Part shown: positions 1 through 36,512 of the stretch, piece by piece
Layout of the letters: every line of letters begins with the position of its first letter
How positions within the stretch are numbered: the stretch's first letter is position 1
Notes under the pieces: model-generated
What the model was told of the DNA's origin: nothing
Seen by the model: only the letters and a program-made list of their open reading frames with translations
Databases searched by the model: none
Origin: Octopus vulgaris
Lineage: Eukaryota
NCBI GenBank assembly: GCA_951406725.2
Contig: OX597816.1
Location: 56,358,001 to 56,422,000 of the forward strand
DNA length: 64,000 bases
Direction: 5' to 3'
Made by a program: the position numbers and the translations under genes

Positions 1-117
1 AATAATGAAGGTAGAAATTGATATTAATCAAATAAAAGCAGTAGCTTAGCATATTTAAAAAATCCGAAGATTAAAAATTATATTACATACAAAATTAAGA
101 GGTGGTCATTCCTTTTA
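1..117 (-). mobile_element. End fragment of the HHR-bearing Penelope/retrozyme-like repeat family also found at 29783-30333
   Basis: 1-102 aligns by eye to 30230-30333 (ggtagaaattgatattaatca...aatccgaaga...tacatacaaaatt(a/t)agagg); it is followed by a short inversion (ccttttaattttgta). Confidence 0.7.
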
Positions 118-145
118 ATTTTGTACATGTGTGTGTGTGTGTGTA

Positions 146-340: not shown

Positions 341-769
341 TCATAATTTTGCCACGTGGTATTTACTGAATCTCCAGTGTTTTTGCTCTCTTTACATATA
401 TATACATTTATATATATTATGGAGATTTACTTGCATAGCAAGTGACCTAATCTGAGATCGTTAGCCAAAGGTAAAACAATTGCAGCGTGGAAGGTGTTTA
501 TAAGCCATTTAAATATCACACAAAACCTTTAGATTCACTTCAAAATTTAAATTTAATTTGTCAAAATATCTTCATTGCTTTGAAGCAACGACCTGTTCAC
601 TGACGAAATTCCGTTGTTTATATATATATAAATATAAGTTCAGCAAAATTTAGATTCAGATGAATATGGTACTTAAGTTAAAGGCACCAGAATTTTGTAT
701 GGCATTATCCATATAAATCAAATGGGAGTGATTATAATCAAAATAAGCAACAAGGATATCCAAGGTAGA

Positions 770-855
770 GTAATACAATTGTTTCATGCTACTTCATTTT
801 ATTAAACACTGTAAGTATTACATCAGTTTTAAAATGTCGAGCAATCTTCAGCTAC
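770..855 (-). ncRNA. Type I hammerhead ribozyme motif, intact core, long stem II
   Basis: Minus strand reads gtag-CTGAAGA-t-tgct...catttta...taaaatg...agca-t-GAAA-caattg-TA-ttac. Stem III is palindromic (ACAATTGT) and the cleavage triplet is GUA. Confidence 0.75.
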
Positions 856-1120
856 TTATAGAATTTTCTAATTGAAGTACAAACGACATTTGTACTACTC
901 CTTCCTATATCTATAAATAGAAAAAAATTCTTGTTTGTCTCCATTCAACCAAGAATAAAACCTCCTCTCCACTGACAGATCTAAATAACAAAGTGAACTC
1001 AATGATAAAATCTACAGACGGAAAGTGAACATACTACTATCATGTTCTTAAGAATGAAATCAGCCTCTCTGAAATAGGGATAAGAATGTGCGTTGTCCGT
1101 TTAATTGGAAATTTCTATAT

Positions 1121-1205
1121 GTGGCTGAAATTGCTCGACATTTTAAAACTGATGTAATACTTGCAGTGTTTATTAAAATGAAGTAGCATGAAACAGTTGT
1201 ACTAG
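1121..1205 (+). ncRNA. Hammerhead motif, degenerate inverted copy (core G lost)
   Basis: gtgg-CTGAAA-ttgct...agcat-GAAA-cagttg-TA-cta; inverted copy of 770-855. Confidence 0.55.
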
Positions 1206-1539
1206 TTTACCTTGGATATACTTGTTGCTTATTTTGATTATATATATATACAGAGTACATATATTCTGGCATACTCCTCTGTATGTGTTTGTGTGTGTGT
1301 GTGTGTGAGTGTTCATAATATTTGTACCCAGAATCGTGTGCAGAAAGGAAAGCTCATATGTATTCCGGTGTAAAAGGGTGGAAAATACATTGTGCTGCTT
1401 AAGATTGCTATATGTTGAAGTGATGGTTTCCATCTAGCATATCATGCTATGGGGATTAAGGGCTTTGCCTTTCGTCACGGCACAATAGCGTGCCACGAAA
1501 TGTAGCTAGGTGCACTGCAGAAATATTCGCAGAATTATT

Positions 1540-28329: not shown

Positions 28330-28912
28330 TCATTAAAACATTAGCCCACAATGCGTTTGTAGTGCTAGTACTCATACCAACGTTTGGCCTGCTTGATTGG
28401 ACGCTTGATGAGATCCGAGTCATTGATGTGAAAACCCGGAAGATACTAACAAACACACATAATTTCCTGATCACCAGTGATGTAGACCGCTTCTACCTTA
28501 AACGAAAACAACGCGGCAGAGGCTTAACATTGATTCAAACTGCCTTTGAATGTCGTATTATATCCCATCGGCAACATCTTTTAACCACCAACTATCAAAT
28601 TACATCCCTTGACCAAGTTTTCATACATGAGGCTGATAACATCATAAGACTTGAGCAGAAATCCTTGTCAGATAATCTTAAATACACATGCCCAAAGAAT
28701 TTGTACGACTCTACCGCTAAATATCAAAGGAAAGGATGAGCGTACATGAGCAGGAAACTAGGCATGGATATGTTAGTAGAAAGCTCCGTGTAGAGAGTAA
28801 CATTCATCACCAAAGCAGTTTATCGTGGACCAAGAACCGGATTACAACCTCCCACTTTGAAGGGTATACGTTTGCAATCCAGGGACAGGAAATATCAACA
28901 AAATACCTGATG
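28330..28912 (+). pseudogene. R4/Dong-clade LINE internal fragment (post-RT region)
   Basis: IPTFGLLDWTLDEIRVIDVKTRKILT...SDVDRFYLKRKQRGRGL...EGYTFAIQGQEISTKY. Confidence 0.8.
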
Positions 28913-29164
28913 CAGAGCGCATCTTGAAAGAGTTAAGGAAAAAAACTGCCCCTCCTGTAGTTCTACTAACAACTGAAGAGTCCCGCTCACTCCCTTACTG
29001 GCAACAATATAGGAGAGGGGAGGAGAAACGTGAAGGTGTAAAAGTACGTAATTACAGCAGAAGCAACATAGACAGCAGCAGTGGTAGCAGACAGCATATA
29101 GGCTGTCCTCTTTTAGTGGTTAATCCTCTAAATTTTGTGTATATATATATATATATATATATAT

Positions 29165-29728
29165 CCCTAATTTTGAGAAATAATTGAGATTCAGTTGAAT
29201 TAGGTACTTAAGCTGAAGCACCAAGTCAGTCCGGTATTATCCTCACGCCTCGAAGATGAACGCAATCAAAACAAGCAACAGGATAACACGTAGTGATGCA
29301 GTACGACCGTTTCAAGCGGCTTCATTTAATTGAACAATGCAATCATTACATTAATTTAATGCAATGTCATCTTCAGCTGCACAAATAAATAAATAAATGG
29401 AATTTTAACAAGTAAGACACATAGATATAATTTTTTTTAGATATTTTAACAGATTTTCAAATTCATGTATTTTAAATTCATATTGTCGCTAGTGTAGCTA
29501 AGAATAGACTAACTTCTAAGAACATAGCGGAGCATTGTGGGATCAGAGGGTTGTAAGGGTTGTAATTCATTTCTAATTCAGTTATCTCTTTATCAACTAC
29601 TAAATGTAAGACTAGAAGACTGTGTCCACTTTGAATAAAGGACAAGAATGAGTTGACAGCTCATGGCTTGGTATGGTCATACATATTGTCATATGTATCA
29701 CTTTTCCCTAAGGAAGAAATAAGACATT

Positions 29729-29731
<3 letters not shown>
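29165..29731 (-). mobile_element. Penelope-like fragment with HHR, nested in (TA)n
   Basis: Homologous to 650-855 and 3671-3875; ends inverted (atatccctaat / attagggatat). Confidence 0.65.
29297..29381 (-). ncRNA. Type I hammerhead motif, conserved core, long stem II
   Basis: tgcag-CTGAAGA-t...t-GAAA-cggtcg-TA-ctgca; 5-bp stem I; the base of stem II has drifted. Confidence 0.65.
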
Positions 29732-29782
<51 letters not shown>

Positions 29783-29787
<5 letters not shown>

Positions 29788-30333
29788 AAATTTAGAGGAT
29801 TAACCACTAAAAGAGGACAGCCTATATGCTAAATATAGACACCAAAATCGCTATTTTCCACGAAGAATGTGTTCTCAAGAAAAAATTCAGCAAAACACCA
29901 AAGTGTAAAAGTAAGTAAGACAAATGAAAATATACGAAATAAAAAACGATTACCTATGTACTAATTAGTTTCACTTGTTAATAATTTACGTATATGAATA
30001 CATAAACATCTGCAAGATCATCAGCATAGTCTGTCGTTTACGAAACATAATTTCCAGAACTAGATACAGAGCGCTCGACCGAAATCCAGCATTGTATAAA
30101 GTGCCACAAATTATATTTATGTGTATCTTTCAAATGCCTTCACTTTGGCGCGCTGAGATCGGAAATTGCTCTGCAGTTAATAAACTACAGCATTCAATGT
30201 ACCGGCAAGATAACATATTTTTATTTAAAATTAAATAAGGGTAGAAATTGATATTAATCAATTAAAACCAGTGGCCTGGCATATTTAAAAAATCCGAAGA
30301 TAAAAAAATTTTTTACATACAAAATTTAGAGGA
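29783..30333 (-). mobile_element. ~534-bp unit-length HHR element with terminal direct repeat (retrozyme/pLTR-like)
   Basis: atacaaaatttagagga at 29783-29799 and 30317-30333; contains an intact HHR; 46-bp inverted copy of its end at 29093-29138. Confidence 0.75.
29954..30029 (-). ncRNA. Type I hammerhead ribozyme, intact core
   Basis: ctatg-CTGATGA-t-cttg...caag-t-GAAA-ctaattag-TA-catag; perfect 5-bp stem I, palindromic stem III ACTAATTAGT, GUA triplet. Confidence 0.85.
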
Positions 30334-30355
30334 ATTAATTTTATATATATATATG

Positions 30356-30463
30356 CCCTGCTCGCTTAGCCAGTGGGGTGGCGTCATTTAAAGGCTAAAA
30401 CAATTCGAAGTACATTGTGACCGGCGATGTGTACCAGCATCTGATAGCCTGATCGGTCACGAT
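30356..30463 (+). mobile_element. SINE family C 3' end
   Basis: cctgctcgcttagccagtggggtggcgtcatt...ggtcacg matches 47160-47265. Confidence 0.85.
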
Positions 30464-30464
30464 G

Positions 30465-30500
<36 letters not shown>

Positions 30501-35322: not shown

Positions 35323-35873
35323 ATTGGAAGCTATGCCAACATTATGGAATAACAACAGAAAAAAGATGGTATAGGCACACACCAGAAAAGGTCACAGAAA
35401 ACGAGAAAGCAACCATACTCTGGGATATGCCGATACACACAGATAGAGAAATTAAGGCCAACAGACCAGATATAGTTGTCAGAGATCATGAAGAAAAAAA
35501 TGCTTTCTAATTGATGTATCAATACCGGCAGATGACAACGTTTCTCTAAAAGAAATGGAGAAACTCTCAAAATACAAAGACCTGGAAATAGAGGTAACTA
35601 GAATGTGGAACCTGAAAACAGAAACAATTCCTATCATAGTAGGTGCATTAGGCATGATAAAAAAATATTCAGACAAATACATAACAAAAACACCAGGACT
35701 TACAAACACATATAACATACAGAAAATTGCACTACTAGGCACTGCACACATCCTACGCAGAACACTTTCCATACAATAACCATCAGAGCATCACAACAAA
35801 TCACAGCACATACCCAAGGCACACAGAGCTGCGCTCGGTAGTGAAGTGAAAGCACGCTATAAAAATAAAACTA

Positions 35874-35876
<3 letters not shown>
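35321..35876 (+). mobile_element. R4/Dong LINE 3' end (restriction-like endonuclease), 5'-truncated, in (AAT)n
   Basis: HWKLCQHY...ILWDMPIHTDREIKANRPDIVV...(frameshift)...LIDVSIP...KLSKYKDL...PIIVGALG...IQKIALLGTAHILRRTL*; PD-D-K RLE motif. Confidence 0.92.
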
Positions 35877-35947
<71 letters not shown>

Positions 35948-35968
35948 TAATAATGATAATAAGTATAA

Positions 35969-36387
35969 TAAGGCTAACAGACCAGATATAGTTGTCAGAG
36001 ATCATGAAGAAAAAAAAGCTTTCTAATTGATGTATCAATACCAGCAGATAACAACGTGTCTCTAAAAGAAATGGAGAAGCTTTCAAAAAGACCTGGAAAT
36101 AGAGGTAAGTAGATTGTGGAATCTAAAAACAGAAACAATTCCTATTACAGTAGGTGCATTAGGCATGATAAAAAAATATTCAGACAAATACATAACAAAA
36201 ACACCAGGACTTACAAATACATATAACATACAGAAAATTGCACTGCTGGGCACTGCCCACATCCTACGCAAAACACTTTCAATACAGTAACCATCAGAGC
36301 ATCACAACAAAACATAGCACGTACCCAAGGCACACAGAGCTGCGCTCGGTAGTGAAGTTAAAGCACGCTATAAAAATAGAACTACTC
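35969..36387 (+). mobile_element. Second tandem R4/Dong 3' end in (AAT)n
   Basis: Closely similar to 35453-35876 with the same 3' UTR; bounded by (AAT)n on both sides. Confidence 0.92.

Positions 36388-36512
<125 letters not shown>

What the first reader, a model, noticed from the sequence alone, without database searches (positions are those of the whole stretch)
29783..30333. Unit-length 534-bp element with an intact hammerhead and a terminal direct repeat, like a copy of a circular template
Seen: the element begins and ends with the same 17-mer (atacaaaatttagagga), so it is one unit plus a short overlap. It carries the best HHR in the window (ctatg-CUGAUGA...GAAA-cuaauuag-UA-cauag). The repeat junction lies about 170 bp from the predicted cleavage site. 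The same family ends at 1-117. Inference: this fits reverse transcription slightly more than once around a circular RNA, or a partial tandem pseudo-LTR.
Basis: partly seen in the sequence, partly recalled or inferred. Interest (0 to 1): 0.75.

Follow-up and report, generated by a model that had tools for sequence, protein, structure and literature searches.

The report
Aged Penelope-type hammerhead repeat copy
This is one aged copy of an abundant non-coding repeat family that carries a hammerhead-ribozyme motif and was likely pasted in by a Penelope-type jumping-gene enzyme; its 17-base terminal repeat is part of the element itself, not a target duplication, and it does not show that the template was a circle.

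Summary
The 17-mer repeat, the 534-nt unit and the type I hammerhead (minus strand, predicted cut after 29959) are real. The element belongs to a dispersed family (1,207 exact hits of one 24-mer). Of 188 sampled segments, 171 end at one of two fixed 3' sites, mostly on (TA)n. 5' ends are truncated, and 86 of 165 carry a head-to-head inverted arm. This is the published Penelope-like (PLE) footprint. The 17-mer is template overlap, not a target-site duplication. A circle is not shown: 49 of 188 segments exceed one unit, none reaches two, and 5' ends do not pile up at the ribozyme cut. On the second lap 13 of 37 copies, including this one, stop in one 16-nt window (3 expected), which fits a linear RNA start. 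The hammerhead shows compensatory changes across subfamilies, but this copy has U·U instead of the canonical G10.1–C11.1 pair, and Rfam does not detect it. RT+GIY-YIG PLEs are abundant in the genome; no sequence-linked partner was found. The scan has noted this kind of element many times on other DNA. Verdict: new member of a known kind (non-autonomous PLE derivative / non-LTR retrozyme).

The parts
29783..30333 (-). Main arm: one 534-nt unit plus 17 nt of the next (unit positions 1-551, ribozyme sense)
   Evidence: about 5% from the family majority
29783..29799 (-). 3' copy of the 17-mer; holds fixed 3' end 'site 1' (inferred reverse-transcription start)
   Evidence: 56 of 188 segments end at unit 7-26; junction tally
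30317..30333 (-). 5' copy of the 17-mer, the copy's 5' boundary, at the edge of the preferred second-lap stop window (unit 520-535)
   Evidence: 13 of 37 second-lap copies stop in this window, 3.0 expected
29954..30029 (-). Type I hammerhead motif; palindromic stem III; U·U at 10.1-11.1; predicted cut after 29959
   Evidence: no Rfam hit; cleavage untested
30222..30232 (-). Internal position of fixed 3' end 'site 2' (unit about 102-112), read through in this copy
   Evidence: 115 of 188 segments end at unit 96-126
29735..29782 (.). (TA)n tract joined to the 3' end
   Evidence: sequence; 136 of 171 canonical ends are followed by a TA/TG/GATA run
30334..30354 (+). Likely 8-9 nt second (inverted) arm from site 2, then (TA)6; the junction shares a 4-nt palindromic microhomology
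   Evidence: matches the commonest site-2 terminus; too short to prove
29093..29138 (+). 46-bp opposite-strand copy of the 3' end (unit 504-15), followed by (TA)n; identical to the main arm including its 4 differences from the majority
   Evidence: 0 of 152 other segments within 2 differences
29177..29734 (-). Neighbour: older, separate hammerhead-bearing repeat family (motif 29381-29297) whose two TA flanks received the focal pieces
1..125 (.). Second, short two-armed insertion of the same family (unit 2-107 on minus; unit 526-16 on plus)

Best explanation
This is a 5'-truncated, partial-tandem copy of an abundant non-coding repeat that was likely mobilised in trans by a Penelope-like element (RT + GIY-YIG endonuclease). 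Shown: two fixed 3' ends about 95 nt apart, joining to (TA)n, random 5' truncation, head-to-head inverted arms, unit-on-unit tandem junctions, and a covarying hammerhead fold. Inferred: the PLE protein nicks a TA tract on both strands, and each DNA end primes reverse transcription internally at site 1 or site 2 of the RNA. Copying stops at about 0.5% per base, and the two cDNAs join by microhomology. Here the long arm began at site 1, ran one unit and ended at a preferred 5' boundary, leaving the 17-nt overlap. That boundary is most likely the 5' end of a linear transcript starting at unit 520-535; longer copies would come from read-through of partial tandems. Ribozyme cleavage is likely not needed for insertion, and would need two tandem motifs.
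For: 171 of 188 segments end at two sites; 136 of 171 on TA-type runs; 86 of 165 pattern-sampled segments have an inverted arm within 25 nt. Repeats within one insertion differ by 7.1% against 11.2% between copies, and arms by 6.6% against 12.1%, so both come from one template lineage. Second-lap stops at unit 520-535: 13 of 37 against 3.0 expected; first lap 4 of 61 against 5.0; 0 of 150 simulated best windows were as extreme. No pile-up at the cut: 1 of 42 against 2.6. Coding PLEs are abundant (6,136 GIY-YIG candidates, 150 scored; RVT_1 and GIY-YIG domains), and 9 of 9 examined end in (TA)n. Literature: two internal RT starts, priming on both strands, uncleaved RNA as substrate (PMC11167929); partial tandems, inverted 5' copies and TA bias (PMC8557442).
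Against: No autonomous partner with shared sequence: 0 of 30 and 0 of 20 (partly overlapping) GIY-YIG loci matched the unit. The 520-535 window was picked after seeing the data, 24 of 37 copies run past it, and the stops are spread over about 15 nt. No consistent cap-derived G is visible by eye at those junctions. In Penelope the start site, as recalled and partly seen in PMC2377424 passages, lies upstream of the ribozyme, whereas here it would lie about 150 nt downstream. The whole unit folds far better than shuffles (z -5.4 linear; -4.9 focal and -7.8 majority as circles), which suits a retrozyme circle.
Confidence: 0.8

Rival explanations
1. Same PLE-driven insertion, but the template is a 534-nt circular RNA made by dimer self-cleavage and ligation (retrozyme cycle). 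The enzyme goes round slightly more than once, and second-lap stops come from having to displace its own cDNA.
For: Every copy longer than one unit is unit-on-unit. 8 of 188 cross the cut position twice. No consistent upstream-versus-downstream differences. Repeats within a copy are about as alike as the two arms. Strong fold as a circle. Covarying palindromic stem III. Circles are shown for mussel, coral and axolotl retrozymes (PMC7229834). Stopping rate rises to 1.9% per base beyond 700 nt.
Against: 0 of 42 long copies reach two units against 2.4 expected (weak). No three-motif runs. The second-lap excess sits at one unit position for both site-1 (7) and site-2 (6) copies, not at each enzyme's own start. 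U·U at 10.1-11.1 in 41 of 53 motifs. Only one full dimer of motifs (L172) was seen in the sample.
Confidence: 0.3
2. The unit is the solo pseudo-LTR (truncated 3' end) of a coding PLE, not an independent non-autonomous family.
For: Most PLE insertions are 5'-truncated down to a terminal repeat (bioRxiv 10.64898/2026.07.22.740005). Only 150 of 6,136 GIY-YIG candidates were scored.
Against: All 49 copies longer than one unit continue into the unit itself. No flank matched the coding PLEs tested. The unit has no open frame of 100 aa or more.
Confidence: 0.08
3. The 17-mer is a target-site duplication or a chance repeat around an unrelated insert.
For: The two 17-mers are identical.
Against: The 17-mer is family sequence at dozens of unrelated loci and is internal in longer copies.
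Confidence: 0.01

Closest known systems
Metazoan non-LTR retrozymes (Cervera & de la Pena 2020, PMC7229834; Li, Clavereau & Pollet 2026, bioRxiv 10.64898/2026.07.22.740005)
   Same: Non-coding, AT-rich (31% GC), head-to-tail unit with a type I hammerhead; strongly self-paired; co-occurs with PLEs; size within the 51-972 bp range of Li et al.; dispersed monomers are described there too.
   Different: Larger than the 170-400 nt invertebrate circles. No arrays of two or more units in 188 segments. Circles and cleavage untested. In the text I read, those papers do not describe fixed 3' ends or inverted arms.
EN+ Penelope-like elements and their pLTRs (Craig et al. 2021, PMC8557442; Frangieh et al. 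2024, PMC11167929; Cervera & de la Pena 2014, PMC4209133)
   Same: Partial tandems, 5' truncation, inverted 5' copy, two alternative 3' ends, TA-microsatellite bias, hammerhead with palindromic helix III.
   Different: No ORF. The two ends are about 95 nt apart rather than a 30-40 bp tail. The dominant subfamily lacks G10.1-C11.1. The template beside the 3' ends is itself TA-like, so priming may use microhomology, unlike the Anolis element.
Non-autonomous PLEs such as MRC1 of Chlamydomonas (PMC8557442 passage)
   Same: Non-coding, forms pLTR-like overlaps and head-to-tail insertions.
   Different: Those resemble an autonomous family at the 3' end; no such partner was found here.

Membership tests
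Non-LTR retrozyme | Type I hammerhead in each unit | tested here: met
   Fold supported by covariation: 91% of cells paired; 66 double changes against 15.5 in shuffles and 0-12 in slid controls. Core letters intact in 36 of 53. No Rfam hit.
Non-LTR retrozyme | Canonical G10.1-C11.1 pair | tested here: not met
   U·U in this copy and in 41 of 53 motifs; G-C in 3.
Non-LTR retrozyme | Non-coding | tested here: met
   No frame of 100 aa or more over 29783-30333.
Non-LTR retrozyme | Tandem repeats with at least two complete ribozymes | tested here: inconclusive
   Not at this locus. Rare same-strand motif pairs 530-534 apart exist (L172). No segment of two full units in 188.
Non-LTR retrozyme | Self-cleavage and circular RNA | not testable with these tools
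   Only assembled contigs were available.
Penelope-like element (insertion footprint) | Fixed alternative 3' ends with variable 5' truncation | tested here: met
   171 of 188.
Penelope-like element (insertion footprint) | Partial tandem and inverted 5' copy | tested here: met
   49 of 188 longer than one unit; 86 of 165 with an inverted arm.
Penelope-like element (insertion footprint) | AT-rich / microsatellite target | tested here: met
   136 of 171.
Autonomous Penelope-like element | RT + GIY-YIG open reading frame | tested here: not met
   None in the element or continuing from sampled copies.
Non-autonomous PLE derivative | Sequence link to an autonomous PLE | tested here: inconclusive
   No match in 30 + 20 partly overlapping GIY-YIG loci out of 6,136 candidates.

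The most novel reading that the evidence does not exclude
This family records a non-rolling route for animal retrozymes. Copies were written from linear RNAs, many starting at an internal promoter just upstream of the first reverse-transcription start. The '17-bp repeat' would then be a retrovirus-like terminal redundancy between transcription start and RT start, and the ribozyme would be dispensable for spread, tolerating loss of G10.1-C11.1. That would contrast with the circle-based model and with the long young arrays noted elsewhere in this genome.
Probability: 0.3. Interest if true: 0.55.

Novelty: new member of a known kind. Interest (0 to 1): 0.3.

Why it matters
The class is known, and this locus is a decayed copy (about 3.5% change since insertion, inferred as half of the 7% within-insertion difference). 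Its value is as a population record: the ends of the copies map two RT start sites, show two-ended priming, and give a preferred 5' boundary. These give concrete positions for testing whether animal retrozymes are copied from circles or from linear partial-tandem transcripts, a step that PMC7229834 and PMC4209133 propose but do not show in the passages I read.

Tried and rejected
Rfam found no hammerhead on the element; the whole-window scan showed only microsatellite-driven miRNA hits among the 150 of 361 rows listed. Idea that 29165-29735 is a MITE: rejected, it is a second hammerhead-bearing repeat family. Idea that 5' ends mark the ribozyme cut: rejected (1 of 42, 2.6 expected). Search for an autonomous partner: none in the loci tested. 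Sequencing runs: no RNA holder on record. Contigs of four guessed-RNA runs held diverse family copies including inverted joints, but contigs cannot show starts, ends or circles. Three other runs held the family but did not bridge the locus. The first motif count used too strict a pattern and was replaced. Searches used over-strict duplicate filters (143 and 177 segments); one search is the corrected count (188), and one search was not re-run, so some two-armed loci count twice in it. A sharp start at the initiator-like pentamer (label recalled) was not seen: 4 stops against 4.1 expected at unit 529-3 over both laps. Look-ups by sequence and by nearby place in earlier findings were blank. Paper searches 'octopus + hammerhead ribozyme' and 'cephalopod + Penelope-like + non-autonomous' listed no description of this family (listings only). 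Repbase and Dfam could not be checked, and supplements were not read.

Full report
Observation. The 17-mer stands at 29783 and 30317 and nowhere else in the window. I number the element on the minus strand (unit position p = window 30334 - p). A type I hammerhead spans 30029-29954, with the predicted cut after 29959. Rfam does not detect it. The 534-nt unit folds at z -5.4 against shuffles. The 3' end runs into a (TA)24 tract. A 46-bp inverted copy of the 3' end lies at 29093-29138. It shares all four of this copy's differences from the family majority, and none of 152 other segments comes within two differences, so it likely stems from the same template or from later conversion. Facing pieces like this are rare (5 of 163 rows). 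The 5' flank 30334-30354 reads like an 8-9 nt second arm from site 2 plus (TA)6.

Family. The window lies in G000 (2.8 Gb, 227 contigs). Earlier scan notes call the genome octopus; I did not test that. The DNA search gave 3,128 candidates, of which 40 were scored. Exact 24-mers at unit 353-376, 457-480 and 72-95 gave 176, 356 and 1,207 hits. Several thousand segments is my inference. The 30 best copies are about 5% from their majority and 9% from each other. I sampled loci from the first-listed hits of three patterns (48, 35 and 82 segments) plus 23 from the DNA search: 188 after removing 8 duplicates.

Ends. 56 segments end at unit 7-26 (site 1), 115 at unit 96-126 (site 2) and 17 elsewhere; 136 of the 171 are followed by a TA/TG/GATA run. 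5' ends follow a flat stopping rate of about 0.5% per base up to 700 nt, then 1.9% (11 events in 592 bases). 86 of 165 pattern-sampled segments have a head-to-head inverted arm. 49 of 188 exceed one unit, always continuing into the unit itself; the longest is 990 nt and none reaches two units. The 17-mer is therefore template sequence, not a target duplication.

One template per insertion. Repeated stretches within a copy differ at 353 of 4,965 sites (7.1%; control 11.2%) and share 132 derived letters (38 expected). Inverted arms differ from main arms at 490 of 7,383 sites (6.6%; control 12.1%) (run on 143 segments, some loci counted twice). No position differs consistently between upstream and downstream repeats. 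This fits a circle or a fresh partial tandem equally well.

Circle or linear RNA. There is no excess of 5' ends at the ribozyme cut (1 of 42, 2.6 expected), and 8 segments cross the cut position twice. On the second lap 13 of 37 copies stop at unit 520-535 (3.0 expected, p 4e-6; 0 of 150 simulated best windows as extreme; 11 of 36 after discounting the focal copy and one with an internal deletion). On the first lap 4 of 61 stop there (5.0 expected). Site-1 copies (7) and site-2 copies (6) stop at the same unit position, not at their own start. The focal copy is one of these. A linear RNA starting there explains this simply, and Penelope has a promoter within its pseudo-LTR (PMC2377424, passages). 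Against: the window was chosen post hoc, the stops are spread, and 24 copies run further. Stalling during strand displacement on a circle remains possible. That array is probably another family; I could not compare its sequence.

Ribozyme. In 53 motifs (the focal one plus 52 from loci not selected on the motif), 91% of cells pair, with 66 double changes against 15.5 in shuffles. Compensatory changes occur in stems I, II and III; related copies inflate these counts. Stem III stays self-complementary at 8-10 nt, the form that published work says needs a dimer (PMC4209133, passages). Pair 10.1-11.1 is U·U in 41 of 53 and G-C in 3, whereas that paper calls G-C highly conserved. Activity of this copy is doubtful and untested.

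Partner. GIY-YIG search gave 6,136 candidates and 150 scored matches, many in a 781-codon frame with RVT_1 (just under its cut-off) and GIY-YIG domains. Nine of nine copies examined end in (TA)n. None of 30 and 20 partly overlapping loci matches the unit, so the mobilising family is not identified.

Comparison. It works like an EN+ PLE insertion: two internal RT starts, both strands primed and uncleaved RNA used (PMC11167929, parts 1-2 of 4 read); partial tandems, inverted copies and TA bias (PMC8557442, passages). In content it is a non-LTR retrozyme-type unit (PMC7229834, passages and sections 14 and 17; bioRxiv 10.64898/2026.07.22.740005, parts 1-3 of 5). It is not an autonomous PLE, and it meets the retrozyme definition only in part, because arrays, cleavage and circles are not shown. 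Searches listed no description of this family. The scan has noted the same kind of element in this and other genomes (unchecked AI notes, not counted as support).

Verdict. Real, correctly located, a new member of a known kind. Interest 0.3. The only non-routine point is the preferred second-lap 5' boundary, which argues that at least part of this family was copied from linear RNA.

Noticed in passing
window 29177-29734 (-): A second, older hammerhead-bearing repeat family of about 555 nt (3,671 candidates, about 83% identity), also ending on (TA)n; motif at 29381-29297.
   Followed up: partly
window 733-1242: A third hammerhead-like motif (856-769, minus) inside an inverted pair 733-890 / 1085-1242, suggesting another two-armed insertion.
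   Followed up: no
window 30355-30465: A very abundant short repeat flanked by (TA)n directly beside the element's 5' end; very deep in all runs laid. SINE-like by appearance only.
   Followed up: no
window 28341-28930: Broken reading frames that look like the C-terminal part of a non-LTR retrotransposon RT (Dong/R4-like, recalled); no Pfam hit for 28341-28736.
   Followed up: partly
L147-L154 (e.g. G000:C16:20833500-20841500): A young PLE family with many 781-codon RT+GIY-YIG frames, an overlapping upstream frame of up to 479 codons, and a roughly 1-kb 3' region of internal repeats; my pattern found no hammerhead in the first 520 nt after the stop.
   Followed up: partly
window 35453-36482: Two tandem 519-bp copies, 93% identical.
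   Followed up: no
L006 and L252: Two unrelated loci share the same junction between the inverted arm and unit position 475, at a short microhomology; four copies start at exactly 475.
   Followed up: partly
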